Virus record (IMG/VR): IMGVR_UViG_3300024272_000044
DNA: 56,071 nt
Reading direction: 5' to 3' (one strand)
DNA from: an uncultured virus (IMG/VR IMGVR_UViG_3300024272_000044)
Lineage: Duplodnaviria > Heunggongvirae > Uroviricota > Caudoviricetes
The notes under the pieces are model-generated. The model was not told the DNA's origin, did no database searches, and saw nothing but the letters and a program-made list of their open reading frames with translations. Within the stretch, counting starts at the first letter, position 1. Every line of letters starts with the position of its first letter. Shown piece after piece: positions 636 through 49,317 of this stretch. The position numbers and the translations under genes are program-made.

Positions 636-664
636 TTGACAAATATAACTAATAATGTTATAAT
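636..664 (+). promoter_or_regulatory. Sigma-A-type promoter
   Basis: TTGACA(636)-17 bp-TATAAT(659), extended TG, upstream A-tract. Confidence 0.85.
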
Positions 665-2501: not shown

Positions 2502-2709
2502 AGATTCAATTAGATTAAAAGAAAATAGAAAAGAATATAGAATTAAACCGACAATTAAATTTTGTGTTGGTAATGATAATTATATATTTTCATTTGTTCC
2601 AACAATTGTATGGCAACCTTGGATTTATAGATATATTAATTGTAGTGTTATCGATGTATGGTGGTTGCATTATCATATTGCTATTGGAATATGGGAACGT
2701 AAAAGCTGA
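2488..2709 (+). CDS. Hypothetical protein
   Basis: ORF, ATG 2488, packed in operon. Confidence 0.6.
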   Translation: MKLIKDSIRLKENRKEYRIKPTIKFCVGNDNYIFSFVPTIVWQPWIYRYINCSVIDVWWLHYHIAIGIWERKS

Positions 2710-2724
2710 ATTTTAAGAGGTAAT

Positions 2725-3054
2725 ATGAAATTTATAGAATTTAATTCAAAAGAAGAAATGATTGCATATGAAACAGATAGAGAAAATTATTATATGCAGT
2801 TTCTTAATGCAAAAAATACATTTGAATTTTATAAATTATGGTTCAAAGAGCTTTTTGTTAAAGAATATCGAGAATTAAAAAAGAAATATGATGGTTATTG
2901 TGGTGGATGGTACAGAGATAAAGATGGTATTATCCACACAGAAAATATTTCTTGTGTTGATTCAGATAAGGTTAAAAACGGAGACATTTGTATAGAAGAA
3001 TGTTTGGATAAAGATTATGTGTTTCACAACAACACATGGATAAGAGTATTATAA
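2725..3054 (+). CDS. Hypothetical protein
   Basis: ORF with AGAGGT RBS. Confidence 0.7.
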   Translation: MKFIEFNSKEEMIAYETDRENYYMQFLNAKNTFEFYKLWFKELFVKEYRELKKKYDGYCGGWYRDKDGIIHTENISCVDSDKVKNGDICIEECLDKDYVFHNNTWIRVL

Positions 3055-3080
3055 AAGTTTAATTTTATGGGGTAAAAGAT

Positions 3081-3203
3081 ATGGCTTTCTTTTGTAAAAG
3101 AAAAGTAAGTAAATCAAAAAGAAAGACAATTGGTTGTAAAGGGTGCAAGTACTATGAGAAAGTGTTCTGGGACGGACATTGGCAATGGCGTTGCACATGT
3201 TAA
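3081..3203 (+). CDS. 40-aa basic Cys-rich peptide (not in ORF track)
   Basis: MAFFCKRKVSKSKRKTIGCKGCKYYEKVFWDGHWQWRCTC; GGGGT RBS; fills one cassette exactly. Confidence 0.65.
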   Translation: MAFFCKRKVSKSKRKTIGCKGCKYYEKVFWDGHWQWRCTC

Positions 3204-3229
3204 AACTAACATTTTAAGAGGTAAAGCAT

Positions 3230-3394
3230 ATGTTAAAAATTATGAAGATTGCAGAGATAAAGGCTTCTGATACAGAAAGTTTAAAGAAAATTGTAAAAGC
3301 ACTTGAAGATGCAGAATTTACAGTTGCTTATGATAAAGAGTATACACATTATGCATATGTTTGTGTTGAAGAAATTTCTAATAGAGGTGAATAA
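3230..3394 (+). CDS. 54-aa hypothetical protein (not in ORF track)
   Basis: MLKIMKIAEIKASDTESLKK...; AGAGGT RBS. Confidence 0.65.
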   Translation: MLKIMKIAEIKASDTESLKKIVKALEDAEFTVAYDKEYTHYAYVCVEEISNRGE

Positions 3395-3395
3395 T

Positions 3396-3584
3396 ATGAA
3401 ACATGTAAAAGTAACAAATTGTGAATCTGGAGATTGGCAGATTCTTGAAGTAAATGGTGTTGAATGGGCTTCTGGTCATAGCATTACAGAACATGATTGG
3501 CTTGGTCTTTTAAGCGAACACTTTGATGCACAGATAGAATGTGATTGTATTTCAGATGAAGAAATGGAAATGAGAACATTTTAA
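3396..3584 (+). CDS. Hypothetical protein
   Basis: True start MKHVKV at 3396 after GAGGTG. Confidence 0.65.
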   Translation: MKHVKVTNCESGDWQILEVNGVEWASGHSITEHDWLGLLSEHFDAQIECDCISDEEMEMRTF

Positions 3585-3619
3585 TAAGGTTATAAAAGAT
3601 TAGTTTTAAGAGGTAAAAA

Positions 3620-3880
3620 ATGAATGAATTATTATTTGGTATACCATGTATTATTGCTCAACAAATAAAGAAGCAAAAGAAATATAGCAAATATAAAATT
3701 ATAAATTGGTTTTATAAAAAAATGTATGGTTACGAATATGAATCGACTATGCCAGAAGGAACTGACGTAATATATTTTGAGAACAAATTTATTTTTAGAG
3801 ATAAAGAAGCATTTGACAAAATGGCAAAAGCATATGAAGAAACTATGACATATAATTTGTTTAAGGTTAGAGAGTTATAA
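3620..3880 (+). CDS. Hypothetical protein
   Basis: ORF with AGAGGT RBS. Confidence 0.7.
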   Translation: MNELLFGIPCIIAQQIKKQKKYSKYKIINWFYKKMYGYEYESTMPEGTDVIYFENKFIFRDKEAFDKMAKAYEETMTYNLFKVREL

Positions 3881-3897
3881 AACGAGGATTTTAAGTG

Positions 3898-4062
3898 ATG
3901 AAATTAAAAACAATTAAATATAATGGAAAAGAAGAAACATTTTGTGATGTATTATCTTTTGAATTTAGAACAAATCAGGTTTCAAATTGGATAAGGATAG
4001 AAACAATTTATGGCGAAACAATTATTGTTCACAATGTTTGTGTCATTAAGAGCGTAGAATAA
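3898..4062 (+). CDS. 54-aa hypothetical protein (not in ORF track)
   Basis: MKLKTIKYNGKEETFCDV...; GAGGA RBS lies in the palindrome spacer. Confidence 0.6.
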   Translation: MKLKTIKYNGKEETFCDVLSFEFRTNQVSNWIRIETIYGETIIVHNVCVIKSVE

Positions 4063-4071
4063 GAGGTTAAT

Positions 4072-4380
4072 ATGGATTATAGAAATAGAAATTATTATTT
4101 AGCAAACATAGATTATGTCTCATATGATATGAGATTAAAAATTTTTAAATTAGTAACTCCATCATTAAAAATACACCCACCATATAATCATGTTAAAAAT
4201 AAACATCAGCATGATTATGTAGATGGTTTAACTTGGCAAATGATGTTAAGTTGCAAGAAAGAAGATTCAGAAGCTCTTGAATATGAATTAAGAAAAGCAG
4301 AAAGAAATGATAGATATGATGGATTGTATTCTTCTGGAAGTAATTTTGTAAAACTAAGCAAAGAGTTATTAGGTCAATAA
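4072..4380 (+). CDS. Hypothetical protein
   Basis: ORF with AGAGGT RBS. Confidence 0.7.
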   Translation: MDYRNRNYYLANIDYVSYDMRLKIFKLVTPSLKIHPPYNHVKNKHQHDYVDGLTWQMMLSCKKEDSEALEYELRKAERNDRYDGLYSSGSNFVKLSKELLGQ

Positions 4381-4390
4381 GGAGTAAATT

Positions 4391-4897
4391 ATGAAGATTA
4401 TTAACTTAGGTAGAGGTCAAGGCAAAACAACAAGATTGCTTTATGCAAGTGAATTTAATGATGCACCAATTTTGTGTAGTAGCTTAGCGCAAAAAAATGT
4501 TTTATTACATATGGCAAAAGAATTACATTTAAATATTCCAGAGCCATTATGTGTTGGCGATGTGTTTTCAGATAAAATTAGAGGAAATAGAAGTCTTGAC
4601 AATGGTATTTTGGTAGACGATACAGAATCTGTGTTACAACAGATGTTATATAACATTGGATTACATAGTAAGATTAAAGCAATGAGTATAACAGATATTG
4701 CAGACAATAATAGATATACGTCATCTAATAGACATGTATCATGGAATGTAGAAAAATTAAAACATTATGATAAAGCAATTCAAGATTGTGCAAATAATTT
4801 CAACACGATTAGTAATACTATTAGTGAATTATCAGATTCTTTATCAACTACTAAGTATTGGGATGTTACATCTGCTAATAATGAAACAAAGTTATAA
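4391..4897 (+). CDS. Small P-loop-like protein
   Basis: N-terminal GRGQGKTT Walker-A-like motif and ILVDD Walker-B-like motif. Confidence 0.55.
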   Translation: MKIINLGRGQGKTTRLLYASEFNDAPILCSSLAQKNVLLHMAKELHLNIPEPLCVGDVFSDKIRGNRSLDNGILVDDTESVLQQMLYNIGLHSKIKAMSITDIADNNRYTSSNRHVSWNVEKLKHYDKAIQDCANNFNTISNTISELSDSLSTTKYWDVTSANNETKL

Positions 4898-4922
4898 AAC
4901 AAAGATTTTAAGAGGTATTAAA

Positions 4923-5117
4923 ATGATTATATCAGAAGAAAAATATTGCATCGCATCAAAAGAATTTCCCCTAAAGTTTTATCGTTGTGGAAATGAAACT
5001 GATGTTATGGAACATGATTTGTTGATGAGTAAAGAAAGTTGTGAATATGAATTAAGCACATATGACGAACCTGAAGAGTTTCATATTTTAAAAGTTAAAG
5101 TAACTTATGAATTTTAA
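4923..5117 (+). CDS. Hypothetical protein
   Basis: Start MIISEE at 4923 after AGAGGT. Confidence 0.65.
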   Translation: MIISEEKYCIASKEFPLKFYRCGNETDVMEHDLLMSKESCEYELSTYDEPEEFHILKVKVTYEF

Positions 5118-5149
5118 GGTGATAAAATAAAGGTTTTATGAGGTAAGTT

Positions 5150-5509
5150 ATGGAAGAATGGATTAAAAAATCTGATGTATTAGAATTATTAGGTCTACCT
5201 TCAGATATTTTATATGAATATATTCATGAGTTAAAGGGTGTTTGGGTGGATGAAGATTGGAATAAATGGAATCCAACAAGCGAAGGTCTGCCAAAAGAAG
5301 ATGGAGAATATTTGTGTCAGAGCAACTTTGGCAATCACGAATTATTTGAAGTGTTGTCATTCAGTACAAATCTTTACGAAGTGGATGAATATGATTTTTG
5401 TGATATAAATAGAGCAGGCTTTTATGATTTTGATTCAGAGTGGGGATATTATGAAGCTCATAATGTTGTAGCGTGGCAACCACTTCCAGAGTCGTATAAA
5501 GGTAAATAA
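5150..5509 (+). CDS. DUF551-like phage protein
   Basis: WNPTSEGLPKEDGEYL...VVAWQPLPESY. Confidence 0.7.
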   Translation: MEEWIKKSDVLELLGLPSDILYEYIHELKGVWVDEDWNKWNPTSEGLPKEDGEYLCQSNFGNHELFEVLSFSTNLYEVDEYDFCDINRAGFYDFDSEWGYYEAHNVVAWQPLPESYKGK

Positions 5510-5524
5510 AGAGGTAAAATTTAT

Positions 5525-5668
5525 ATGGTGACAGATACAGAAGAATACAAAGGAAGAAGATTTGAATGCGAACATTGTGGTTATGTAGTATCAAGTAATG
5601 CAATGAGTGACTTTGATGTGGACGATTTTGAATATTGTCCTCGTTGTGGAAAAGAAATTGATTACTAA
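5525..5668 (+). CDS. 47-aa zinc-ribbon protein (not in ORF track)
   Basis: FECEHCG...YCPRCGKEID; AGAGGT RBS. Confidence 0.7.
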   Translation: MVTDTEEYKGRRFECEHCGYVVSSNAMSDFDVDDFEYCPRCGKEIDY

Positions 5669-5696
5669 TAAAATTGTTGTTTTAAGAGGTGATAAT

Positions 5697-5975
5697 ATGA
5701 GAGATACTTTTTCTATTATAAAAATGGATTTAGATAAATTAAATAGAAAGATTGATGAATATGTAAATATTACAAATAAATCTAATCCATATATTTTTAT
5801 GAGTGAAAATACAGCAAAGAGCGTTGATTTTACCATATCTCCATTAAACTTATTTTTGCGTATAACATCAAAATACAAAGACGAACACGAGCCAAATGGT
5901 AGAATAGCCGAGTATACTGGACATAAAATTTTTATAAACAATGATTTAGAATATGGTGAAATTGAAATTAGATAA
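5697..5975 (+). CDS. Hypothetical protein
   Basis: Start MRDTF at 5697 after AGAGGTG. Confidence 0.7.
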   Translation: MRDTFSIIKMDLDKLNRKIDEYVNITNKSNPYIFMSENTAKSVDFTISPLNLFLRITSKYKDEHEPNGRIAEYTGHKIFINNDLEYGEIEIR

Positions 5976-6005
5976 TAAAATCTGAGTTTTAAGAGGTGAT
6001 AATAT

Positions 6006-6194
6006 ATGAATTGGAAGTTTTATTGTCCACATTGTAAAAAGGTTAAAAATAGATTTCAAGTTGCCAAAGGAACTGACGGTGTTAGATTCTATTGGCATAG
6101 ATGTAGAGAATGTGGAACACAAGTAATTGAATTAAAGCAAGTATTAGAACAAGTAATATCGTCTACTAGAAGATTAGTAGATGACGATGAATAA
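6006..6194 (+). CDS. Zinc-ribbon protein
   Basis: CPHC...CREC. Confidence 0.7.
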   Translation: MNWKFYCPHCKKVKNRFQVAKGTDGVRFYWHRCRECGTQVIELKQVLEQVISSTRRLVDDDE

Positions 6195-6219
6195 AATAAG
6201 AGTTTTAAGAGGTAACAAA

Positions 6220-6486
6220 ATGCTTTGTTATAGTTGTGATAAAATTGGTGGATGTTCTATATTCCAAAAGTTATATAAAATATCAAATAATTTCTTTATT
6301 AATGATTGTTTGGAATATGTTGGAGCACCAGAATTAAAATATAGAAAAATTGCAGAACATAATGACCTCATGGCTTTAATATATGATTATTTTACTAATC
6401 AGTTAGATAGTGAAGAATTATTAGGCAGAGAATATAGCGATGAAGAAATAAAAGATATTATTAGAGAATACATGTGGAGATTATAG
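6220..6486 (+). CDS. Hypothetical Cys-containing protein
   Basis: Start MLCYSCD at 6220 after AGAGGT. Confidence 0.65.
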   Translation: MLCYSCDKIGGCSIFQKLYKISNNFFINDCLEYVGAPELKYRKIAEHNDLMALIYDYFTNQLDSEELLGREYSDEEIKDIIREYMWRL

Positions 6487-6519
6487 GCAATAAAATTTCG
6501 TTTTTAAGAGGTGATAAGA

Positions 6520-6702
6520 ATGAGTAGAAGTATGATTTTAGAAGCGATGTATGAAGTTATTAAAGAATCTACTGATTGGGGAGTTACTGAAAAAGATTAC
6601 GGTATGTTTGTAGATGGTGTCGTGGCTATGACAGATGCGATGTTAGCCAAAAATGAATTACTAAATGGATGTTGTGCAAAAGAAGATTCAATGCTTGCAT
6701 AA
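6520..6702 (+). CDS. Hypothetical protein
   Basis: Start MSRSM at 6520 after AGAGGTG. Confidence 0.65.
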   Translation: MSRSMILEAMYEVIKESTDWGVTEKDYGMFVDGVVAMTDAMLAKNELLNGCCAKEDSMLA

Positions 6703-6732
6703 TAAAATGAAAGTTTTAAAGGTGGTTATATA

Positions 6733-6891
6733 ATGAAACACAACATAGAAATTAGCACGGTTGAAGCATTATTGATTGTCCAGTTGTTACGTGAAAATGT
6801 ATTAGAAAACGAAACAGATAAATTAATAGCTCAAAAATTAAAAGATATGATAATTGAAAAGGTTGCAACTGAGCTATCAGAAAAGGAGTAG
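6733..6891 (+). CDS. 52-aa hypothetical protein (not in ORF track)
   Basis: MKHNIEISTVEALLIVQLLRE...; AGGTGG RBS. Confidence 0.6.
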   Translation: MKHNIEISTVEALLIVQLLRENVLENETDKLIAQKLKDMIIEKVATELSEKE

Positions 6892-18974: not shown

Positions 18975-19019
18975 AAAATAGCACTTAAAATCCCAATTTT
19001 ATTAGGTGGTGAATGAAAT

Positions 19020-20917: not shown

Positions 20918-21006
20918 GCACCCTTAGCTCATTAGGTGAGAGCCACGACCTTATAAGTCGTAAGCCCTAGCAAGGTATAAGCCCAGTTCGAATCTGGGAG
21001 GGTGTA
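20918..21006 (+). tRNA. tRNA-Ile(UAU) with long variable arm
   Basis: GCACCCT/AGGGTGT acceptor, ACGAC-CTTATAA-GTCGT anticodon arm, CCCAG-TTCGAAT-CTGGG T arm; no encoded CCA. Confidence 0.8.
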
Positions 21007-21011
21007 CTTAT

Positions 21012-21084
21012 TGCTCCTTCGCCAAGCGGTAAGGCACAGGACTTTGACTCCTGCATTACACTGGTTCGAATCCAGTAGGGGCAG
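21012..21084 (+). tRNA. tRNA-Gln(UUG)
   Basis: TGCTCCT/AGGGGCA acceptor, CAGGA-CTTTGAC-TCCTG, ACTGG-TTCGAAT-CCAGT. Confidence 0.9.
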
Positions 21085-21157
21085 TCGTTGTAGAAAATCT
21101 TTTTTAAATAATCCTCCTTTCCTTTTTAGGTGCTGTGTAGGAAGTCCCTACACAATC

Positions 21158-21227
21158 GGGAATGTAGCTCAGTAGGTAGAGCAATGACTTTAAGTCGTAG
21201 ACGTGGGTTCGACTCCCACCGTTCTTG
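21158..21227 (+). tRNA. tRNA-like element with 5-nt anticodon loop
   Basis: Canonical D arm (GCTC...GAGC) and T arm (GTGGG-TTCGACT-CCCAC); anticodon arm ATGAC-TTTAA-GTCGT. Confidence 0.7.
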
Positions 21228-21301
21228 TTTACCAATGTCTAGCCTATAAAACGTTGGTGTAATAAAGTTTAAAAGATTCAAAGTTTAAAAGAAAGGTTAA
21301 A

Positions 21302-21958
21302 ATGGTGAAAATCATGGCAACAAATGAAAAGATGACAATTCATAAAGCATTAGCAGAATTAAAGCTTTTAGATAATAGAATTCTTTCTTCTATTATGAAT
21401 GGTTCATTTTGTGTAGCAAATAAACATTCAAACGATAAAATCAAAGGCGTGTCAGTTGAAGAATATAAAACTGTTATGCAGGGAAACTACGACAAGGCAT
21501 CTGATTTGATTAAGAGAAGAAACGCTATTAAAAAAGCTGTTGTATTGTCAAACGCAGTAACAAAAGTAAAAATTAATGGTATTGAATACACAGTGGCAGA
21601 AGCTATTGAAATGAAAAATCATGGTGTTACTTTTGATGAACACATGCTCCTTGAATTACAGAAACAGTATAACAGAGCTCAGGCTGAAATCCTTAGAGAA
21701 AACGGCTCTGAACTTGAAAAAAGAGCAGAACAGTATGTAATTGGTGCATTTGGTTCTAAAGAGGGCAAGGTGAATACAGAAGAATATGAAAAGGCTAGAA
21801 TGCAGTTCATTAAAGCAAATACATACGAACTTGTAGACCCTATCAAGATTCTGGATAAGATTAACGCATTAGAAGAACATATTAACACATTCAAGGCAGA
21901 AGTAGACGCTGCGCTTTCAGTATCTAATGCAATTACAGAAATTGAAGTTAACTACTAA
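21302..21958 (+). CDS. Coiled-coil protein resembling the DIP1984/DUF6847 family
   Basis: MTIHKALAELKLLDNRI, SNAVTKV...YTVAEAI, LVDP...EVDAALSVSNAITEIEV pattern recalled from that family. Confidence 0.6.
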   Translation: MVKIMATNEKMTIHKALAELKLLDNRILSSIMNGSFCVANKHSNDKIKGVSVEEYKTVMQGNYDKASDLIKRRNAIKKAVVLSNAVTKVKINGIEYTVAEAIEMKNHGVTFDEHMLLELQKQYNRAQAEILRENGSELEKRAEQYVIGAFGSKEGKVNTEEYEKARMQFIKANTYELVDPIKILDKINALEEHINTFKAEVDAALSVSNAITEIEVNY

Positions 21959-21994
21959 ATAGTAGAAAGCTACTTATGTAGTTAATATAAATTG

Positions 21995-22396
21995 GTTATT
22001 CGCTGTTTATTGAAAACTTTAGACTACAACTCATAAGTCTTTTAGGGGTGCTTAGACTTATGTAAAACAATAAAGAAACACCTCTTCTTCTTAAAAGCTG
22101 AGATTTAGAAAAACAACAGAGGAAAAGATTGGAAATCTTTTTATTTGATTGTTTATCAAAATGGGTAAGTGTGTTAAACTTATAGCCAAATATTGATAAA
22201 TATTTACATAGTGGGACTGTAAAGTTTAAAGTTGTAAAACTCAAATAATAAAGTTAAAAATTCAAAGTTTATTTCATGAGTCAAAGTTAAAAGAATAAAT
22301 AGTAAAGTTATAAAGATTTACAAAATCCTTGATATACAGTTTAGTTTAGTTGTACATGACTATAAGCATCTGCAAGGCTGGTAAATAGCGAATAAC
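21995..22396 (+). ncRNA. Candidate ~400-nt structured ncRNA
   Basis: Ends pair (GTTATTCGCTGTTTATT with GGTAAATAGCGAATAAC); internal hairpins, possible pseudoknot, AAAGTT repeat tract; no + strand ORF. Confidence 0.7.
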
Positions 22397-22403
22397 ATAT
22401 TAA

Positions 22404-22482
22404 TGCAAGATAGTGTAAATGGATAACACGAATCTTATAGCAAAGCTAAGATTAAACTAAGGTTCAAATCCTTATCTTGCAA
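22404..22482 (+). tRNA. tRNA-like element with expanded (13-nt) anticodon loop
   Basis: TGCAAGA/TCTTGCA acceptor, GTGT/ACAC D stem, AATCT-TATAGCAAAGCTA-AGATT, TAAGG-TTCAAAT-CCTTA. Confidence 0.7.
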
Positions 22483-23694: not shown

Positions 23695-24279
23695 ATGTTA
23701 GCTAAAGGAGACAAATTAATCGTAACAAAAGATGTAACAAGCTTCTTAAAAAAAGGAGACATCGCAGAAGTAATTGGTGTTGATGGTGGTATTATTTCAT
23801 TTGCATTTGGTGAACACATGATGCACAAAGGAGTAATGAGCACAGATGAATATAATGAATATTTTGAAAAATATGTAGAACCAAAAGCAGCTCCAACAGT
23901 AACAGAAGAAATGATTAAACGTATTGTTGCAAAATCAAATATTGAAATTCAGACAATTTATGATAAGTGTACTATTGTAACATGCGAACTTCCAAACGGA
24001 TTTGTTATTGTAGAATCATCTGCATGCGTAAGCCCAGATAATTATGATGAAGAAATGGGATTTGAAATCTGCGTGGATAAAATTATTGATAAAATTTGGG
24101 AGCTTGAAGGATATAAACTTCAGAGTGAATTATATGAAGAAGAATGCGACTGTAACGGATGTTATGATTGTTGTGAATATTGTGATGAATGTGATGAGTG
24201 CGATGAAATTGATGAATGTCTTGACACAGATTTAGACTGTGACGATTGCGAACATCGTGCCGAGTGCTGGGGAGAATAA
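23695..24279 (+). CDS. Phage gp49/66-family (Acb4-like) domain protein with Cys/acidic tail
   Basis: TIVTCELPNGFVIVESSACVSPDNYDEEMG...KIWELEGY. Confidence 0.75.
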   Translation: MLAKGDKLIVTKDVTSFLKKGDIAEVIGVDGGIISFAFGEHMMHKGVMSTDEYNEYFEKYVEPKAAPTVTEEMIKRIVAKSNIEIQTIYDKCTIVTCELPNGFVIVESSACVSPDNYDEEMGFEICVDKIIDKIWELEGYKLQSELYEEECDCNGCYDCCEYCDECDECDEIDECLDTDLDCDDCEHRAECWGE

Positions 24280-24291
24280 GGAGAATATAAA

Positions 24292-25053
24292 ATGAAAAAA
24301 GGTTTATTGATTTTGTTTATGGCTCTTTCGTTGATGGTAATTCCTTGCTGTTCAACGAAAGCAGAAACACAGAGTAGCACAAAAACAAGCGAAACAAAAA
24401 CAAATGAAACTAAAAAACCAGAAGTAGAAAAAATTATTGAAGCAACAGAAGTAAAGAATTGGAAAATGGCTATTCCATTAGATATTACAGACGAATATTT
24501 AGATATGCTTTTCAGTAATGAATATGATGAATACAAAACTTTATATACTACAACATATTTAAATATGAGACCATTTCCAAATATCACTTCAAACGTTACA
24601 AAAGTGTTAAAGCCATATACAGAAGTAACAGCAATGTCTGATTATAATGGTTGGACAAAAATTTCAGTATTAAATGAAAATGGAAGATATAGTCACTTCT
24701 ATCTTTGGAACGAATACTTAATGGACGAAGAAACAAAAAATGAAAAAATTAAAGCAGCAGAAGAAAAAGCAAGCGAATACTTAGGCAACTTTAGATTAAC
24801 AGCATATTGCAACTGCTCTAAATGTTGTGGAAAATGGGCTGGTGGCGCAACAGCAAGTGGCACTATGCCATCAGCTGGAAGAACAGTTGCTATGGGCGGT
24901 GTTGCCTTTGGCACAAAACTTTTAATTAATGGACATGTGTATACAGTTGAGGACAGAGGAACTCCGTATGGTCATGTAGACATTTATTTTAACAGTCATA
25001 GCGAAGCATTGCAGTTTGGCTCAAGACATGCAGACGTATACAAAGTAAATTAA
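24292..25053 (+). CDS. Exported SH3 + 3D-domain cell-wall-acting protein
   Basis: Signal peptide, LNMR...NGWTKI SH3b, LTAY...TASG...VEDRG...HVDIYF 3D motifs. Confidence 0.8.
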   Translation: MKKGLLILFMALSLMVIPCCSTKAETQSSTKTSETKTNETKKPEVEKIIEATEVKNWKMAIPLDITDEYLDMLFSNEYDEYKTLYTTTYLNMRPFPNITSNVTKVLKPYTEVTAMSDYNGWTKISVLNENGRYSHFYLWNEYLMDEETKNEKIKAAEEKASEYLGNFRLTAYCNCSKCCGKWAGGATASGTMPSAGRTVAMGGVAFGTKLLINGHVYTVEDRGTPYGHVDIYFNSHSEALQFGSRHADVYKVN

Positions 25054-25067
25054 TATAAGCAATAAAA

Positions 25068-25098
25068 TTATAGGGCGTGTAAAATACATGCCCTATAA
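25068..25098. terminator. Intergenic hairpin / terminator
   Basis: TTATAGGGCGTGT-AAAAT-ACATGCCCTATAA. Confidence 0.55.
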
Positions 25099-25113
25099 CA
25101 TTAGAGGTGAGAA

Positions 25114-25746
25114 ATGAAGACATCAGAATTATTTGAAAAAGAATTAAATCTTATTAAAAACGAACATATGAGAAATGTTGTAGCAAACACATTAAATGCA
25201 AGCCCAGAGTGCATTCAGACAATTCCAGCGTCATCATCTGGAAGATATCATCCGTCATATTCTTTAGGAGATGGAGGGCTTGTAAGACACGTAAAAGCAA
25301 CAGTCGGAATTGCTTGGTCAATGATTGAATCAGATGTATTAAAAGGATTATTAAATAGAGATGATTATAGTGATATTTATGAAGATATTGTTTACGCATC
25401 TTTAATTTTACATGATTGTTGCAAACCAGATGACACACCAAAACATAGCACACGTTTTGACCATCCTTTAGTTGCTGGCAATTTATTTGTATCAACAGTA
25501 ACAGAATATTTTAAGAACAATAAACTGTCGGACAATGATATGGATTATATGAGAAAGGCTGTTCCTTTAACTGTTATGTGTATCAAATCTCATATGGGGA
25601 AATATAACACCGCTCCATATGCAAAAGGAGTTGTATTGCCAAAACCATCTAAGAACTTAGAATGGTTTGTGCATTCTTGTGATTTATTAAGTTCTAAGAA
25701 ATATCTTGAATTTGATTTCGATAAATATTATAAAACATTAAAATAA
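25114..25746 (+). CDS. HD-domain phosphohydrolase
   Basis: PASSSGRYHP, GGLVRH, LILHDCCK, SHMG, VHSCD. Confidence 0.85.
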   Translation: MKTSELFEKELNLIKNEHMRNVVANTLNASPECIQTIPASSSGRYHPSYSLGDGGLVRHVKATVGIAWSMIESDVLKGLLNRDDYSDIYEDIVYASLILHDCCKPDDTPKHSTRFDHPLVAGNLFVSTVTEYFKNNKLSDNDMDYMRKAVPLTVMCIKSHMGKYNTAPYAKGVVLPKPSKNLEWFVHSCDLLSSKKYLEFDFDKYYKTLK

Positions 25747-25764
25747 AATTTTTTAAAAAAGTAC

Positions 25765-25793
25765 TTGACAAAGTTAAGATAATAAGCTATAAT
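25765..25793 (+). promoter_or_regulatory. Sigma-A-type promoter
   Basis: TTGACA(25765)-17-TATAAT(25788). Confidence 0.85.
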
Positions 25794-25878
25794 CATACTT
25801 GTAAAAGATGTTAAATCTTAACAGTTGGTTATAGCTTTTATACTGTTAAGGTTATATATTAAAAGGAAGGTAGATAAA

Positions 25879-26499
25879 ATGAGTAATAAAAAAGCAGATT
25901 TATCAAAAGTAAGAGTAGAAGTGAGATGGCACGAAGATATGTGGCAAGAAGTTAAAAATGCTACAATGACCACAATTGGAAGGGACAGTGGCAAATACCC
26001 AGACTCTGATTGGAAAAAAAGATTGCTAATGGCTGAACATTCTCCAATCAGAATTCCGCATATTATTGTAAAAGTTTATGACGCGCCACAATTTGTTCAT
26101 GGGCATTTAGTTAGACATAGCCTTGGTGCAACCCCATTTGTATCAACATTAAGAAGTGATAGAAATAATTATGATGAAGTTCCGAATAGAAATACATTGC
26201 AAAGTGCCGAATATATTTTTAATTTTCAGGCTTTTATAAATATTTCTAGAAAAAGATACTGTAATTGTGCAAGCTATGAAACAAGATATGTATGGGATAA
26301 AATTGTAAATGCATTTAAAGAATTAGAACCAGAATTACATAGTTTGTGTGTTAGAGAATGTGTATATAGAAATGGGTTGTGTCCTGAAATGTTCACATGC
26401 GAATATAACAAAAAAGAAGCATTCAAAAAAGAATTAAAAGAATATACGGAGTTTATTAAGGAACAAATTTGTAGCGACACAAATATTTGGAAGGAGTAG
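25879..26499 (+). CDS. thyX: FAD-dependent thymidylate synthase-like protein
   Basis: EHSPIR, HLVRH, SRKRYC...ET, CVYRNGLCPE; start at 25879 after AGGAAGG. Confidence 0.75.
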   Translation: MSNKKADLSKVRVEVRWHEDMWQEVKNATMTTIGRDSGKYPDSDWKKRLLMAEHSPIRIPHIIVKVYDAPQFVHGHLVRHSLGATPFVSTLRSDRNNYDEVPNRNTLQSAEYIFNFQAFINISRKRYCNCASYETRYVWDKIVNAFKELEPELHSLCVRECVYRNGLCPEMFTCEYNKKEAFKKELKEYTEFIKEQICSDTNIWKE

Positions 26500-26502
26500 A
26501 AT

Positions 26503-26715
26503 ATGGACGATTTAATTAGTAAAAGAGAGCTTTTAACTAATCTCATTCATTGTAAAGGATTAGGAAGACAAGCATTTCAAGTATTAATTGACTTTTTAGA
26601 TGACTATCCAATAGAAGTTAACATGAATAAAATAAAAGAACAGATTAAAGAAGTAAGCATTTCAAGAAAAGATATGATTACAATATTTGACATTTTAGAT
26701 AAGGGTGGTATTTAA
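26503..26715 (+). CDS. Hypothetical protein
   Basis: ORF with AGGAG RBS. Confidence 0.65.
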   Translation: MDDLISKRELLTNLIHCKGLGRQAFQVLIDFLDDYPIEVNMNKIKEQIKEVSISRKDMITIFDILDKGGI

Positions 26716-26716
26716 A

Positions 26717-26866
26717 ATGTGCCAGAAGTTGACGAAAGAAGAAAAAACTACTTTACTCGACCTTATAATTAACGAACAAGTAAAACATATGATAGCAAAA
26801 GATAGATATGATACAGATGAATATATTTTTCTTGAACAACTTAAAGCAAAAGTTAGAGATATGTAA
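26717..26866 (+). CDS. 49-aa hypothetical protein (not in ORF track)
   Basis: MCQKLTKEEKTTLLDLII...; fills the gap in the operon. Confidence 0.55.
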   Translation: MCQKLTKEEKTTLLDLIINEQVKHMIAKDRYDTDEYIFLEQLKAKVRDM

Positions 26867-26877
26867 AGGAGTAGATT

Positions 26878-27423
26878 ATGATTGTATTGGTAGGAGAATC
26901 AGCTAGTGGTAAATCTAGTATTGAAAAATATTTAGTAGAAAATGATGGCTATAAAAAAGTTGTTTCATATACAACTAGACAGCCTAGAGACGGTGAAGTA
27001 GATGGTGTTGACTATCACTTCACCGATGATAAAACATTTTTACAATTAAAAAATGAGGGATTTTTTGCAGAGACTGCTGTATATAACGGATGGCATTATG
27101 GAACTGCAAAAGAAGATTGTACAGATGATAAAATTGCAGTGCTTACACCACATGGATTAAGACAAGTAAGTAAAATTAATGGCATTAATATAATCTCATT
27201 TTATATCAATGTCCCTCGTAGAGATAGACTAATTAAAATTCTTCAACGTGGCGATAATATTGAAGAAGCGTACAGAAGAAGCTTGTCTGATGTTGGTCAG
27301 TTTGATGGAATCGAAGACGAGGTTGACTTTGTAATATACAATGATGGGTACGAAAAATCAATTCAAGGAATGTCGTCAGAAATCAAAGTTAAAATTGATA
27401 GAAAAAAATATTTCAACTATTAA
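26878..27423 (+). CDS. gmk: Guanylate kinase-like protein
   Basis: GESASGKS, SYTTRQPRDGEVDGVDYHF, YNGWHYGT. Confidence 0.9.
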   Translation: MIVLVGESASGKSSIEKYLVENDGYKKVVSYTTRQPRDGEVDGVDYHFTDDKTFLQLKNEGFFAETAVYNGWHYGTAKEDCTDDKIAVLTPHGLRQVSKINGINIISFYINVPRRDRLIKILQRGDNIEEAYRRSLSDVGQFDGIEDEVDFVIYNDGYEKSIQGMSSEIKVKIDRKKYFNY

Positions 27424-27442
27424 AGTTATAGGAGGTGTAAAT

Positions 27443-27604
27443 ATGGATACTATGTTTTTTAATTTTGTTATGAGTGTAATATGTGGAGCTCTTGCATTCT
27501 ATCATGGATATCATACAAAAAATATTGCGTTTATGACAATGGATGCTGTATGTGCAATTATTAATTTACCATATGCGATTAAATGGTTAATATCAATTTT
27601 TTAA
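27443..27604 (+). CDS. Small two-TM membrane protein
   Basis: Start 27443 after AGGAGG; two hydrophobic segments. Confidence 0.65.
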   Translation: MDTMFFNFVMSVICGALAFYHGYHTKNIAFMTMDAVCAIINLPYAIKWLISIF

Positions 27605-27622
27605 TGATAAGGAGTAATATAA

Positions 27623-27700
27623 ATGAATAAATATTATTTAAGCCCAGAAGATGACGATGATGATGATGAGTTCTGGGAAGATGAAATTTATAACGATTAA
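27623..27700 (+). CDS. 25-aa highly acidic peptide (not in ORF track)
   Basis: MNKYYLSPEDDDDDDEFWEDEIYND; AGGAG RBS. Confidence 0.5.
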   Translation: MNKYYLSPEDDDDDDEFWEDEIYND

Positions 27701-27724
27701 AACTAAGATTTTAAGAGGTAAGCA

Positions 27725-27952
27725 ATGACAGAACAAACACTTAAAGAAGGGCAAGAAATTTCAAGAACAATTGAATACATTAGAGAGTTAAGAAGGTGTA
27801 TGTTTAGTGCTCCTATAATAAAAGAAAACTCTAACACTAGAGATTATATATATTTGTCTTGGGCAGATAAAAATGGAGATTTAAAAAATACAATTATTAA
27901 CTGGTGTGACAATGAAATTAAAAGGTTGCAAACAAGATTTGATGAGTTATAA
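27725..27952 (+). CDS. Hypothetical protein, bracketed by two TAAAA-N6-TTTTA sites
   Basis: Sites at 27698 and 27950. Confidence 0.7.
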   Translation: MTEQTLKEGQEISRTIEYIRELRRCMFSAPIIKENSNTRDYIYLSWADKNGDLKNTIINWCDNEIKRLQTRFDEL

Positions 27953-27976
27953 AACTTAAATTTTATGAGGTGTGAT

Positions 27977-28372
27977 ATGAAAATAGGATTCTACCCAGTT
28001 GTTGGAGACTTCCTTCATGCTGGACATGTAATTGCAATTGAAGAAGCAAAAGAAAATTGTGATTATTTAATAGTAGGGCTAAACTGTTTTCCAGATAATA
28101 AACAGCCAATTCAATCTATTTATGAAAGATTCATGCAATTAAGAGCTGTAAAATTTATTGATGAAATTATACCATATCAGGGCAAAAAAGATTTGGAGCT
28201 ATTAGCATCCAGCCTTAATTATTCTATTAGATTTCTCGGTGATGATTATAGGGATAAAGATTGGGATGGCAAAGAAGTTGAAACAAAATTAAACAAAACT
28301 CCACACTATTTACATAGACAACATTCTTTAAGCTCTACAGAATTAAAAGAAAGAATTAAAAGCAATATATAA
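27977..28372 (+). CDS. Cytidylyltransferase (TagD/glycerol-3-phosphate CT-like)
   Basis: GDFLHAGH, LIVGL, ER...VDEI-like, GDDY, SSTELKERI. Confidence 0.8.
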   Translation: MKIGFYPVVGDFLHAGHVIAIEEAKENCDYLIVGLNCFPDNKQPIQSIYERFMQLRAVKFIDEIIPYQGKKDLELLASSLNYSIRFLGDDYRDKDWDGKEVETKLNKTPHYLHRQHSLSSTELKERIKSNI

Positions 28373-28388
28373 ACGGAAGGTATATAAA

Positions 28389-28550
28389 ATGAATAACAAA
28401 ACAATTAAAAGATTTGATATTACAATTAAACTAAGAGGTGATAATGTATATGATTTATATGTAAATGATGAGTGGGTCTCATCTCGTGGTCATTACAAAA
28501 ACATCTTAGACGAAGCAAAGAGAGTAATTGAAGATTCTTTAATTAAGTAA
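28389..28550 (+). CDS. 53-aa hypothetical protein (not in ORF track)
   Basis: MNNKTIKRFDITIKLRGDNVYDLYVN...; GGAAGG RBS. Confidence 0.6.
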   Translation: MNNKTIKRFDITIKLRGDNVYDLYVNDEWVSSRGHYKNILDEAKRVIEDSLIK

Positions 28551-28551
28551 T

Positions 28552-28591
28552 AATAAACCTTGCAGATAAAAATAGTTCTGCAAGGTTTATT
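28552..28591. terminator. Bidirectional intrinsic terminator between convergent genes
   Basis: AATAAACCTTGCAGA-N10-TCTGCAAGGTTTATT. Confidence 0.85.
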
Positions 28592-28611
28592 TTATTATGA
28601 TATAATCCTAG

Positions 28612-30234
28612 TTAAATATTTTTACCATGAACATTGGTTTTACGAGGAAAGATTTGTACTAGATTAATGGGTGTTAGTCTTTGGATTACCCCACCAAAAC
28701 AAACGCTATCACCTCTATCCATACGACCAAATGGCGTATGGATATGGACTACCACCTCCTCAATACTAACATCAACTCTCTTAACAAATACATTCAACAT
28801 GATTCTCATAAACTCATCGTCTATAGATTCGCAATCTTCTTTTACATCTTCAATAAATTGAATAATGTAATTTTCAATATCTTCAACTTGGATATCGTCT
28901 GCGTCTAAAATATTTTTTCTTTTTTCTAATTCTTCTTCAATTTGGAATCTGCGTCTTGTTAATTCACCGTTTTTATTATCTAACATTTCTTTGCTCATAT
29001 CACCATCCATATATAAGTCTGTTAGCCTTTCTTGCTTCTTAAATATTTGAGCCAATTCTTTTTTCAGTTGAGCAGTACTTACAACTGGCTCATCTCTCAT
29101 TTCAAGTATTTCTTTATAAGCCATTTGAGCAATCTCTTTAACTTGCTCTTTGTTTGTAACCGTATCAAGAACAGCTTTTAACACCTTTGGTTCAAACCAA
29201 TCTTTATTCAGGCTTGGATTTTTGCATCCATTTTTATGATTTGTTTTTCCAACGCATTTGTAGTAATAATTTAATTTACCATTTTTACCACCAGAACGTT
29301 TAGAGCCATTACCACAGATATGTTCTCCACAACAAGAGCAGAAAGTTTTACCAGTTAGATAATAATATCTTTTTTGACTTCTTTGTCTGCCATGCGTTTC
29401 AGAAGATTCATCGCATAATCTTTGAACGGTATTCCATAGTTCTTTGTTTATTGGATGACCTTTGATAATACCATCTAATCTGATAGTTTCTTTTTTGTCT
29501 ATTGTATAAACATAGTTGCCAATATATTTCTCATTTCTTAAAAGGTCGTAGAGTGTGCGAGTATTGAATTTTTTACCTCTTTGATTTCTATATCCCTCAG
29601 CGTTCAATCTTTCACAAATTTCTGTTTTAGGTATTCCAAGAGCAAACTCTTCAAAAATACGTTTCACAATTTTTGCATTTTCATTTGGGATATAATACCC
29701 ATCATCATCCAAAGAGTATCCAAATAAAACTTGACCTCCAGCATGTTTACCTTTTAATGCATTCTCTCTAAGACCTTTTCTAACTTCAGTTGCAAGGTTG
29801 GCAGAATAATATTGGTCTATTGTTTCAAGAAAACCCTCTAATAACTCACCCTCTGGTGTATCATCAATTTTTTGTGTTACAGAAATAACCTTAACACCAA
29901 TGTCTCTTAATTTCTTTTTATGCAAAGTACTATCAAATTTGTTACGAGCAAAACGATTAAACTTATGAACCAAAACATAATCTGCTTGTATATGACCCTT
30001 TAATAACTTTGTAATCATATTTTGAAAATCTTCACGGTCATCGTTTTTGCCAGTAAGTGCCTCATCGACAAACTCTTCAATTAATTCAATATTTTCTTTT
30101 TCACAATATTCACGAATTGCTCTTAATTGAGCATCAATACTTTCCTCACGTTGATTGTTAGAAGAGTATCTTGCATAAGCAACTGCTGTTTTTCTTGTTC
30201 GACTTCTTTCAATTGTTCTTGATATACTAGACAT
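28612..30234 (-). CDS. Large serine recombinase (phage integrase)
   Basis: YARYSS catalytic motif, NRFARN, recombinase domain, CSCC...YYKC...C zinc ribbon, coiled coil. Confidence 0.93.
   Translation of the reverse strand: MSSISRTIERSRTRKTAVAYARYSSNNQREESIDAQLRAIREYCEKENIELIEEFVDEALTGKNDDREDFQNMITKLLKGHIQADYVLVHKFNRFARNKFDSTLHKKKLRDIGVKVISVTQKIDDTPEGELLEGFLETIDQYYSANLATEVRKGLRENALKGKHAGGQVLFGYSLDDDGYYIPNENAKIVKRIFEEFALGIPKTEICERLNAEGYRNQRGKKFNTRTLYDLLRNEKYIGNYVYTIDKKETIRLDGIIKGHPINKELWNTVQRLCDESSETHGRQRSQKRYYYLTGKTFCSCCGEHICGNGSKRSGGKNGKLNYYYKCVGKTNHKNGCKNPSLNKDWFEPKVLKAVLDTVTNKEQVKEIAQMAYKEILEMRDEPVVSTAQLKKELAQIFKKQERLTDLYMDGDMSKEMLDNKNGELTRRRFQIEEELEKRKNILDADDIQVEDIENYIIQFIEDVKEDCESIDDEFMRIMLNVFVKRVDVSIEEVVVHIHTPFGRMDRGDSVCFGGVIQRLTPINLVQIFPRKTNVHGKNI
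28670..28713. other. Candidate attP within the integrase 3' end
   Basis: Imperfect IR GGTGTTAGTCTTTG / CAAACGCTATCACC (11/14) around a 16-bp centre. Confidence 0.5.
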
Positions 30235-33412: not shown

Positions 33413-33422
33413 CTTAAAATTA

Positions 33423-33659
33423 TTATTTTAATTCATTAATTTTTTCTCTGCAATATTCTCTGCAATTCAAGATTTCGGTATAATCACCAATTTCTTTTCC
33501 CATAATCTGAGCTTCAATTATTTTATTTGGTATGTGGTCTGTTTGAATTAAGAAGGTGGTGTAGAATGTTATTTCTGTATCCATAGTGTCCCCGAACATT
33601 TCTTTGTACTCGTCCAAACTAACCATATTATATTTATTTAATAATTCTATTGAAATCAT
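33423..33659 (-). CDS. Small tail-associated protein (fibre-assembly-like)
   Basis: FLIQTDHIPNKIIE...REYCREKINEL; context. Confidence 0.55.
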   Translation of the reverse strand: MISIELLNKYNMVSLDEYKEMFGDTMDTEITFYTTFLIQTDHIPNKIIEAQIMGKEIGDYTEILNCREYCREKINELK

Positions 33660-37146: not shown

Positions 37147-37252
37147 TTTTTATTCCTCCTTTTATATTTATAAGGATTTACAATAAAGGGCTACTAATTT
37201 ATTAAACCAGTAGCCTATAAAAGTGTTATTTTATTATCAGTTTATTATTGTT

Positions 37253-41443: not shown

Positions 41444-41584
41444 ATTTTGAAATCTCCTTTCAAAATTTATAATTAATTTGTTTCTCTTTTCATTCATAAA
41501 ATTATAGTTTTATATGCTTTAATATTGACGTTATGCATCTACGTATCATGCACAATATTTTCTATTAAAACATATATAAATAAA

Positions 41585-48996: not shown

Positions 48997-49317
48997 TTAA
49001 ATAATACCATTGTTAATAAGATATAAAATCACTTCATCGATTATTTCTTCTGGTGTGGACAGATTTAATGTTTTTAACTTTTTGTATTCATGTTCATCGA
49101 TTTCAATCAAATCCACTGTTTCAAAATGCATTTCTGAAGTAGGTATATTATATAAAGTGCGTTCATGCCAAACGGTATTTCCGTCAGAAGAAAGTATAGC
49201 TTGTGCTTCATTCTCATCACTTAAAACCATGATTTTATGCTTAGGTTGATATTTCAAGTAAATTAATTGGTCGAGCACATCTATAACTTTATTATCTTTA
49301 ATAACTTTGTAAAACAT
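48997..49317 (-). CDS. Hypothetical tail-associated protein
   Basis: GAGGT RBS; between the large tail gene and the XkdX-like gene. Confidence 0.7.
   Translation of the reverse strand: MFYKVIKDNKVIDVLDQLIYLKYQPKHKIMVLSDENEAQAILSSDGNTVWHERTLYNIPTSEMHFETVDLIEIDEHEYKKLKTLNLSTPEEIIDEVILYLINNGII

What the first reader, a model, noticed from the sequence alone, without database searches (positions are those of the whole stretch)
2700..6718. Candidate phage gene-cassette array delimited by TAAAA-N6-TTTTA sites
Seen: 12 copies of an exact 5-bp inverted repeat with a strictly 6-bp spacer lie at gene boundaries within 4 kb (2700, 3052, 3201, 3593, 3878, 4895, 5123, 5669, 5976, 6192, 6491, 6703). Every spacer is different (gctgaa, gtttaa, ctaaca, gattag, cgagga, caaaga, taaagg, ttgttg, tctgag, taagag, tttcgt, tgaaag) and nearly all end in a purine. 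The left arm usually supplies or directly follows the upstream TAA stop. The right arm runs into the next RBS (mostly AGAGGT). The units are 150-1000 bp, carry 1-3 unrelated tiny ORFs, and I saw no promoter in them; they lie downstream of the strong promoter at 636. Established: integron cassettes are promoterless ORFs whose recombination site abuts the stop codon, and tyrosine recombinase sites are inverted arms around a 6-8 bp crossover. Tn916-family integrases tolerate non-matching 6-bp spacers, although their A/T arm polarity is opposite. Inference: this is an integron-like gene acquisition/shuffling system in a phage. The alternative is a repeated operator or translational control site. 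No tyrosine recombinase is in this window.
Basis: partly seen in the sequence, partly recalled or inferred. Interest (0 to 1): 0.9.

Follow-up and report, generated by a model that had tools for sequence, protein, structure and literature searches.

The report
Addressed gene-swap joints in phage genomes
A short mirror-image DNA word with a unique six-letter centre sits between the small genes of this gut phage; related phages keep the same centres in the same order while the genes between them differ, so the words most likely act as numbered joints where a phage enzyme swaps genes between phages.

Summary
Observation confirmed: 12 TAAAA-N6-TTTTA copies at the stated places, 20 in the window against 0.93 expected. 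The complete genome of this SPbeta-like phage holds 57, all with different centres; SPbeta holds 34. Relatives about 70% identical in core genes share 16-18 centres with it against about 2 expected, 14-18 in order; in 80 of 84 shared-centre pairs neither flanking gene is homologous. Homology blocks of Bacillus SPbeta phages end at sites 51 of 396 times, 4 expected. One precise empty/filled pair was found. Best candidate enzyme: a YomM-like tyrosine recombinase outside the window, the only full-length protein shared with unrelated 40-kb phages carrying 16-23 sites. Six cultured phages chosen by this gene have 17-36 sites; five B. subtilis phages without it have 0-1. Exceptions occur both ways; no activity or circle was shown. 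Not an integron: order is conserved and centres appear to need matching, as in Acinetobacter dif modules. This scan found the same joints three times before on other DNA; the enzyme link is added here.

The parts
636..664 (+). sigma-A/70-type promoter upstream of the nuclease gene and the array
   Evidence: 12/12 consensus with TG; activity not tested
2700..2715 (.). site, centre GCTGAA
   Evidence: same centre in G008, G021, L006
3052..3067 (.). site, centre GTTTAA
   Evidence: same centre in G006, G007, G008, L006; a relative's contig (run X14) resumes matching here after skipping 2725-3051
3201..3216 (.). site, centre CTAACA
   Evidence: same centre in G006, G007, G008
3593..3608 (.). site, centre GATTAG
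   Evidence: same centre in G008, G021, L125; X14 contig has 611 other letters in place of 3569-3606
3878..3893 (.). site, centre CGAGGA
   Evidence: not found in the 9 relatives checked
4895..4910 (.). site, centre CAAAGA
   Evidence: same centre in G006, G007, G008, G021, L383, L057
5123..5138 (.). site, centre TAAAGG
   Evidence: same centre in G006, G007, G008, G021, L383
5669..5684 (.). site, centre TTGTTG
   Evidence: same centre in G021
5976..5991 (.). site, centre TCTGAG
   Evidence: not found in the relatives checked
6192..6207 (.). site, centre TAAGAG
   Evidence: not found in the relatives checked
6491..6506 (.). site, centre TTTCGT
   Evidence: present twice, 195 bp apart, in G021
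6703..6718 (.). site, centre TGAAAG
   Evidence: not found in the relatives checked
2725..6702 (+). 15 small ORFs (40-168 aa) between the sites; mostly no family; weak PHROG hits for some (4391-4897, 5150-5509, Zn-finger-like 5525-5668 and 6006-6194)
18986..19001 (.). further site before ORF 19020
26520..26535 (.). further site, inside short ORF 26503-26715
27698..27713 (.). further site followed by AGAGGT and ORF 27725
27950..27965 (.). further site; left arm is the stop of ORF 27725-27952
33415..33430 (.). site in the minus-strand arm at the end of ORF 33423-33659; centre shared with G006 and G061
37218..37233 (.). site in the minus-strand arm between ORFs 36922-37146 and 37253-37660
41497..41512 (.). 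site directly at the start of the 1090-aa minus-strand ORF
49222..49237 (.). site inside minus-strand ORF 48997-49317; centre shared with G061
28612..30234 (-). large serine integrase (probable prophage integrase; not the candidate for the sites)
   Evidence: PHROG 95, E 5e-105; not among proteins shared with the site-rich 40-kb phages

Best explanation
Each (A/T)TAAAA-N6-TTTTA(A/T) is a minimal core site for a phage-encoded Xer/Cre-type tyrosine recombinase, most likely the YomM-like protein encoded before the tape-measure gene (G001:140489-141523, outside the window). The arms would bind two protomers; the 6-bp centre is the strand-exchange region and must match, so it acts as an address. 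Centres are unique within a genome, so a phage rarely deletes or inverts itself. A site can pair only with its twin on a sister genome or on a related phage or prophage in the same cell. One crossover joins or splits genome copies; two crossovers replace everything between two addresses (natural cassette exchange through a cointegrate). The 12 sites are therefore 12 slots of a family-wide ordered skeleton whose gene content turns over. New slots probably arise by duplication of a site and later change of one centre. SHOWN: the motif, unique centres, ordered conservation across phages with unrelated flanking genes, breakpoint enrichment, one precise empty/filled pair, co-occurrence with YomM-like genes, intact catalytic motifs in the G001 protein. 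INFERRED: binding, cleavage, the identity of the enzyme, the cointegrate route, the origin of new sites, and any role in genome circularisation or multimer handling.
For: Strict N6 and polarity. 57 of 57 centres distinct in G001; duplicate pairs over 12 genomes 2 observed, 10.6 expected, P 0.002. Shared centres with G001: G006 17 of 44 (16 in order), G007 18 of 47 (18), G008 18 of 40 (17), G021 16 of 28 (14); null mean 1.2-2.0, max 6-7; order P<0.0005; core blocks of G006-G008 are only about 66-75% identical. 80 of 84 G001-relative shared-centre pairs have no homologous flanking gene; flank identity at 69 pairs is 0.33-0.41 outside the RBS. 8 of the 12 window centres recur in relatives. Homology-block ends in 6 pairs of 4 Bacillus phages: 51 of 396 within 20 bp of a site centre against 4.1 expected, 39 of the 51 with the site inside the block; breakpoints at 41 of 121 site-bearing against 127 of 827 site-free gene junctions, odds ratio 2.8 (pairs not independent). 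L233 joins the left flank of one site to the centre and right flank of the next, removing a 1139-bp unit. A 3.4-kb contig of run X14 swaps the gene between sites 2700 and 3052 and has an insert ending at site 3593. Enzyme: the 40-kb phages G022/G033/G035 have 16-23 sites and share with the SPbeta-like genomes only this protein over its full length (36% to G001), where it lies between terL and portal flanked by two sites. 8 distant terL relatives without it have 0-1 sites. 8 of 8 records at least 90% complete with 15 or more sites carry it. Cultured phages picked by the gene: 17, 36, 23, 22, 17, 30 sites (controls 8, 3, 6, 2, 2, 7); 5 B. subtilis phages without it: 0, 0, 1, 0, 1. R, HxxR, W and Y motifs and an N-terminal core-binding domain are present; the model matches XerA, XerH and Cre (pLDDT 66). 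XerH reads the inner 5 bp of each arm around a 6-bp centre (PMC5241119).
Against: No binding or recombination was tested. 345 of 396 block ends are not at exact sites. The gene is not sufficient: 5 of 12 near-complete records chosen by it have 0-3 sites (G077, G078, G082, G083, G086), two gut contigs have 7 and 4 against controls 5 and 1, and site-poor clades are spread over the tree. It is not strictly needed in cis: G049 (complete) has 9 sites and no hit; G047 and G050 have 4 each with shared ordered centres and a weak or no hit; G009, G010, G013 have 8-10 sites without a strong hit. A site lies within 300 bp downstream of the gene in only 19 of 72 loci and in 0 of 6 cultured phages within the up to 300 bp fetched beyond the match. 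The six cultured positives are all SPbeta-like in layout, so not independent. SPbeta-group proteins have HxxK for HxxR. Only 1 clean empty/filled pair was found, and its two centres differ at 3 of 6 positions, so it is not a simple matched-centre excision. 43 of 57 G001 sites sit within 25 nt of a start codon, as a regulatory element would. Five-bp arms are short for a known core site.
Confidence: 0.62

Rival explanations
1. The sites are conserved linkers used as microhomology (16 bp plus RBS) by general or single-strand-annealing recombination; no site-specific cleavage occurs, and any bound protein only protects or marks them.
For: Matched centres, ordered conservation and breakpoints at sites are predicted equally. 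Most block ends lie elsewhere. PeSL cassettes of T4-type phages drive modular shuffling by recombination between repeats (PMC2839356 abstract). Site-bearing phages without a YomM-like hit exist.
Against: It does not explain the exact dyad, the invariant 6-bp gap, copies inside coding sequences (6 of 23 in G022), avoidance of duplicate centres or the link with one recombinase family.
Confidence: 0.15
2. Integron- or Tn916-like insertion of circular cassettes: the recombinase inserts a gene-bearing circle into a site with only partial centre homology, leaving one old and one new centre.
For: The empty site in L233 keeps centre B and lacks centre A plus the gene; A and B share the first two bases. 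Neighbouring centres are more alike than chance in G001-type arrays, at positions 1, 2 and 5. Tandem duplicates exist in G021. Homologous genes sat behind different centres in 7 of 14 pairs.
Against: No IntI or attC. Order of centres is conserved, not shuffled. The neighbour effect is absent in SPbeta, Goe11, G019 and G022. No site-to-site back joint among the listed joints of four contig sets (weak test). This route may add new slots without being the main traffic.
Confidence: 0.1
3. Repeated operator or translational control element at gene starts.
For: 43 of 57 G001 sites lie within 25 nt of a start and overlap the RBS. Recombinase-fold repressors exist in this phage group (MrpR, PMC10516654), and G001 has a weak MrpR-like gene.
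Against: The RNA hairpin alone is 0 to -1.0 kcal/mol and arm pairing in context is below 0.3 in 8 of 12. No promoters overlap the sites. An operator gives no reason for unique, position-conserved centres; a true operator-like repeat in G077 has a near-fixed centre (24 of 42 identical). MrpR ChAP-seq gave ten promoter peaks with a different motif against 34 sites in SPbeta. In SPbeta the RBS is set well apart from the site.
Confidence: 0.07
4. Same site logic but another enzyme: the 257-aa catalytic-domain-only recombinase upstream of the large array (G001:92694-93467), or a host Xer-type recombinase.
For: The 257-aa gene lies just upstream of the densest array, integron-like. Site-bearing phages without a YomM-like gene exist.
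Against: The 257-aa protein has homologues only in G003, G007, G008 among the genomes compared, not in SPbeta or G022. G013 has a 264-aa recombinase frame, no YomM-like hit and 8 sites against control 4. Five phages of the same host as SPbeta have 0-1 sites.
Confidence: 0.06

Closest known systems
dif modules / pdif sites of Acinetobacter Rep_3 plasmids (PMC13141974, passages read)
   Same: Many recombination sites with a 6-bp spacer flank accessory gene modules; recombination occurs between identical or nearly identical spacers; single modules are replaced through a cointegrate and a second crossover.
   Different: pdif has two distinct 11-bp arms for host XerC and XerD and alternating C/D modules on small plasmids. 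Here the arms are one symmetric 5-6-bp word, up to 60 copies lie through a phage genome with nearly all centres unique and in conserved order, and the candidate enzyme is a single phage-encoded protein.
XerH/difH and XerS/difSL single-recombinase systems (PMC5241119, PMC5357621, passages read)
   Same: One recombinase; inner arms end in AAAA and start with TTTT; XerH reads the inner 5 bp of each arm around a 6-bp centre; the model of the G001 protein matches XerH.
   Different: One chromosomal site, 10-11-bp arms, FtsK dependence, dimer resolution. The phage proteins score far below the XerS and XerC/D cut-offs.
Integrons (IntI, attI, attC); features recalled
   Same: Promoterless small ORFs in tandem, a site abutting the stop codon, an upstream promoter, a tyrosine recombinase in the genome.
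   Different: No IntI, no attC stem-loop, sites genome-wide, order conserved rather than shuffled.
PeSL cassettes of T4-type phages (PMC2839356, abstract read)
   Same: Repeated intergenic elements in hyperplastic regions that mediate modular shuffling between phages.
   Different: PeSLs are promoter plus terminator repeats recombined by homology; these sites carry neither, are 16 bp, and have unique centres.
Tyrovirus gp50 and its proposed attP (PMC9703825, passages and Supplementary Table 10 read)
   Same: gp50 is a tyrosine recombinase of unknown role between neck and tape-measure genes, the position of the YomM-like hit in Izhevsk.
   Different: The paper proposes one 11+6+11 site of another sequence (no TAAAA in its supplements) and does not describe the multicopy motif, of which Izhevsk has 22.
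Cre/loxP of phage P1 and heterospecific lox variants used for cassette exchange (recalled)
   Same: Simple phage recombinase whose spacer identity decides the partner; the model matches Cre structures.
   Different: P1 has one 34-bp site with an 8-bp spacer; orthogonal spacer sets are known as laboratory tools.

Membership tests
Integron | IntI integrase | tested here: not met
   TIGR02249: 21 bits (257-aa protein), 20 bits (G022 protein), no hit for the G001 YomM-like protein; cut-off 265
Integron | attC stem-loop with RYYYAAC...GTTRRRY cores at each cassette end | tested here: not met
   1 core pair in 2600-6800, inside an ORF; no Rfam match in the array
Integron | Promoterless ORFs behind an upstream promoter | tested here: met
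   Promoter 636-664; only chance-level matches inside; sequence scan only
Integron | Single array with variable cassette order | tested here: not met
   57 sites genome-wide; 14-18 of 16-18 shared centres in the same order
Integron | Excised circular cassettes | tested here: inconclusive
   Only contigs could be laid; none listed
dif modules (pdif) | XerC and XerD 11-bp arms | tested here: not met
   Arms TAAAA/TTTTA with flanks unlike the pdif table
dif modules (pdif) | 6-bp spacer; module replacement between matching spacers | tested here: met
   (comparative evidence only)
dif modules (pdif) | Host XerCD as the enzyme | not testable with these tools
   Indirectly against: same-host phages lack sites
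XerH/XerS single-recombinase dif system | One site beside the recombinase gene | tested here: not met
   Dozens of sites; a site within 300 bp downstream of the gene in 19 of 72 loci, including G001 at +26
XerH/XerS single-recombinase dif system | Protein reaches the XerS family cut-off | tested here: not met
   45 bits (G022), no hit for G001; cut-off 267
Simple (core-site) tyrosine recombinase | Core-binding plus catalytic domain with R, K, HxxR, H/W, Y | tested here: met
   PF13495 (22.9 bits, below cut-off 27, in G001; above it in G022) plus PF00589; motifs; HxxK in the SPbeta group
Simple (core-site) tyrosine recombinase | Cleaves and exchanges strands at the site | not testable with these tools
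   Needs an assay
Tn916-type coupling sequences (recalled) | T-tract, 6 free bases, A-tract; centres need not match | tested here: not met
   TTTTA-N6-TAAAA occurs once in the contig; centres are conserved between phages
SPBRE operator of MrpR | About ten promoter-linked 15-bp sites | tested here: not met
   Ten peaks at named promoters against 34 sites; the SPBRE letters are in a figure and were not seen

The most novel reading that the evidence does not exclude
SPbeta-like phages and some unrelated Firmicutes phages carry a dedicated gene-exchange system: one phage recombinase (YomM family) and up to 60 mutually orthogonal core sites forming a heritable address book, so that co-infecting relatives cross over in register at any address even where their genes share no homology. 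The recombinase gene can itself travel as a site-flanked cassette.
Probability: 0.55. Interest if true: 0.93.

Novelty: new variant of a known kind. Interest (0 to 1): 0.82.

Why it matters
How phages swap non-homologous genes at exact gene borders is a long-standing question, usually put down to illegitimate or relaxed homologous recombination followed by selection. Here a candidate site and a candidate enzyme are present in the model phage SPbeta of B. subtilis 168, so the idea can be tested at once. It would give a function to a conserved recombinase of unknown role in the tail-gene region of SPbeta-like phages, explain their accessory-gene mosaicism, and offer a natural recombinase with many orthogonal 16-18-bp sites as an engineering tool. 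The logic is that of dif modules, hence 'variant'; the scale, the conserved address order and the phage-borne enzyme were not found in print. The library lacks most subscription papers, including the 1999 SPbeta genome paper, which was not read.

Tried and rejected
Laboratory hybrids Hyb1-3 of phi3Ts and SPbeta: the long parent switches fall in stretches identical in both parents (1.4-18 kb), several bounded by sites, so the crossover point cannot be placed; the short switches (31-87 bp windows) hold no site. Uninformative to slightly against. Reads: no RNA holder listed; 4 of 14 listed runs were laid, all contigs, X1 possibly the source sample; no circle test possible; many short joints reflect cross-matching of motif plus RBS and were not counted. 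Search for a changed motif in three site-poor YomM genomes: G077 has TCATA-N6-TATGA x42 but with a near-fixed centre in one 22-kb region (operator-like); G086 and G082 gave no N6 equivalent; no co-variation of motif and enzyme shown. Idea that dispersed sites serve to circularise permuted genomes: fits pac/headful packaging of SPbeta phages (bioRxiv 10.1101/2021.11.22.469490 section 18) but site-free gaps reach 12-30% of the genome and Tyroviruses use short fixed terminal repeats; kept only as a minor possibility. G059, G061, G068, G030, G003, G019, G020 share few centres with G001 (0-4), so address sets are lineage-specific. A viral scan with ORF 6220-6486 found only identical copies; the metagenome scan with ORF 4072-4380 gave 11 loci, 3 with sites. 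In one search, 11 of 29 loci shared 0-1 centres. A sequence look-up of earlier findings with the G022 recombinase returned nothing.

Full report
Observation. The 12 copies are exactly as listed. The window has 20 against 0.93 expected, and only a 6-bp gap is enriched: 23 copies in the contig, 0-2 for each other gap of 0-14. In the finding's array 8 of 12 left arms supply or directly follow a stop codon and 8 of 12 right arms run into AGAGGT. A 12/12 promoter lies at 636 and nothing above chance lies inside. The ORFs between sites are mostly without family.

Context. A complete 153-kb record (G001) equals the window at all but 2 of 56071 bases. It is an SPbeta-like temperate phage: serine integrase, YonO-like RNA polymerase hit, weak MrpR-like gene, DnaE (the labels YonO and SPbeta-like rest on shared proteins and on recall). 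It has 57 sites: the window array, a larger array of small genes upstream, and scattered copies in the oppositely transcribed arm. 43 lie within 25 nt of a start, 12 further off, 2 inside genes. SPbeta has 34, with 0-3 for other gaps. The motif plus AGAGGTG occurs in 107 viral stretches.

The centres are addresses. All 57 centres of G001 differ, in either orientation; across 12 genomes duplicates are rarer than chance (2 against 10.6, P 0.002; both in G021). Yet relatives share them: G006 17 of 44, G007 18 of 47, G008 18 of 40, G021 16 of 28, against null means of 1.2-2.0, and 16, 18, 17 and 14 of these are in the same order. Core blocks of G006-G008 are about 66-75% identical to G001. In 80 of 84 shared-centre pairs involving G001 neither flanking gene is homologous, and the flanks are at background identity apart from the RBS. 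Eight of the finding's 12 centres recur; four were not found in the 9 relatives checked. One local order swap occurs (GATTAG before CTAACA in G008). More distant genomes share few or none. The 40-kb phage family keeps its own ordered set. SPbeta shares 20-26 of 30-34 with phi3Ts, Goe11 and L1.

Breakpoints. In six pairwise comparisons of four Bacillus phages, 51 of 396 homology-block ends fall within 20 bp of a site centre (4.1 expected), 39 with the site inside the block. Against gene junctions the enrichment is smaller but clear: 41 of 121 against 127 of 827 (pairs not independent). Most ends, 345, lie elsewhere, so the sites explain part of the mosaicism only. On the window itself, a 3.4-kb contig of run X14 matches 2488-2725, skips 2725-3051, resumes at site 3052 and has 611 other letters ending at site 3593. 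L233, with a terminase identical to G022, lacks a 1139-bp unit and joins the left flank of the first site to the centre of the second; this was the only clean pair found. Laboratory hybrids could not place crossovers.

The enzyme. G001 has two tyrosine recombinases over cut-off and a weak MrpR-like gene. The 257-aa one lies upstream of the large array but has no homologue in SPbeta or G022. The 344-aa one, before the tape-measure gene, is homologous to SPbeta YomM (27%) and to the only tyrosine recombinase of 40-kb phages G022/G033/G035 (36%), which have 16-23 sites; their other hits to the large phages cover only parts of a few proteins. These small phages have SPP1-type head genes and plasmid-type partition and replication genes. 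Eight distant terminase relatives without the gene have 0-1 sites. Among 25 records at least 90% complete, mostly found by the motif, all 8 with 15 or more sites carry it, and the 13 without a strong hit have 0-10. In a panel chosen before counting, 6 cultured phages with the gene have 17-36 sites, 2 gut contigs 7 and 4, and 5 B. subtilis phages without it 0-1 (8 of 41 hits were taken). Against: 5 of 12 near-complete records chosen by the gene have 0-3 sites; G049 has 9 sites and no hit; adjacency of gene and site holds in 19 of 72 loci; site-poor and site-rich genomes are mixed on the tree (41 rows). The protein keeps R, HxxR, W and Y and its model (pLDDT 66, five-row alignment) matches XerA, XerH and Cre. 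The SPbeta group has HxxK.

Mechanism. The best reading is a simple core site whose centre must match, so each site finds only its twin. Two crossovers between related genomes in one cell replace the genes between two addresses; repeated traffic would keep centres alike across a family while genes turn over. This is the cointegrate route described for dif modules (PMC13141974, passages), and the geometry is that read by XerH (PMC5241119, passages; PMC5357621, passages). Neighbouring centres in G001-type arrays are more alike than chance and tandem duplicates exist, which suggests that new slots arise by duplication. All steps from binding onward are inferred. Rivals are microhomology linkers, mismatch-tolerant circle insertion, a regulatory site, and another enzyme. 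The regulatory reading is weakened by the unstable RNA hairpin, by the fixed centre of a true operator-like repeat in G077, and by MrpR binding ten other sites (PMC10516654, passages and section 31).

Comparison. It is not an integron: no IntI, no attC, conserved order. It works like dif modules but lacks XerC/D arms. The Tyrovirus paper notes the same recombinase position and proposes a single site of another sequence (PMC9703825, passages and Supplementary Table 10); PMC7685451 (passages) calls the genes Xer-family without a site. PeSLs are known from the abstract only. Searches returned no paper and 94 no relevant one. This scan reported the same joints on three other windows; I had seen shared centres in L006 before looking, reused their term 'addressed joints', and tested the claim here. 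Verdict: real, widespread, probably a recombination system; enzyme assignment probable but unproven. Interest 0.82.

Noticed in passing
window 21999-22084: RAGATH-27 RNA match (88 bits, cut-off 76) among four tRNA matches at 20918-22482.
   Followed up: no
G001 95148-116209 (outside the window): A second repeat, AAAAAT-N3-ATTTTT, 26 copies with a biased centre, mostly upstream of early genes; operator- or promoter-like, perhaps the site of the MrpR-like protein.
   Followed up: partly
G077 120970-143161 (L351-L352): TCATA-N6-TATGA x42 with near-fixed centre, often 45 bp apart, plus GTTAG-N6-CTAAC x9; operator-like array.
   Followed up: partly
G022 4715-5869 and L233 10718: The recombinase gene itself is a site-flanked unit between terminase and portal, absent at a precise empty site in one relative.
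   Followed up: yes
G022 23783-28814: Actin-like partition gene, FtsK-type ATPase and RepA_N gene in a 40-kb SPP1-type phage: likely plasmid prophage.
   Followed up: partly
G047, G049, G050 (L410-L417): AT-rich 39-50-kb phages share a small ordered cluster of sites without a clear YomM-like gene; one centre matches the G001 family.
   Followed up: partly
window 10655, 23321, 27868: One-mismatch copies; 10655 lies at the DnaE/helicase junction before an RBS.
   Followed up: no
SPbeta group sites (L035-L037): Arms extend outward in Bacillus phages (T at -6 and -4, A at +6 after the right arm, 0.94), unlike the gut phages where the RBS follows at once.
   Followed up: partly
window 30639-55967 (minus strand): Long run of large repeat-rich ORFs that look like tail or receptor-binding genes, with sites at three gene borders; families not searched.
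   Followed up: no
L404, L405 just after the recombinase stop: The published Tyrovirus 'attP' varies in loop length across phages and resembles a terminator hairpin (my inference).
   Followed up: no
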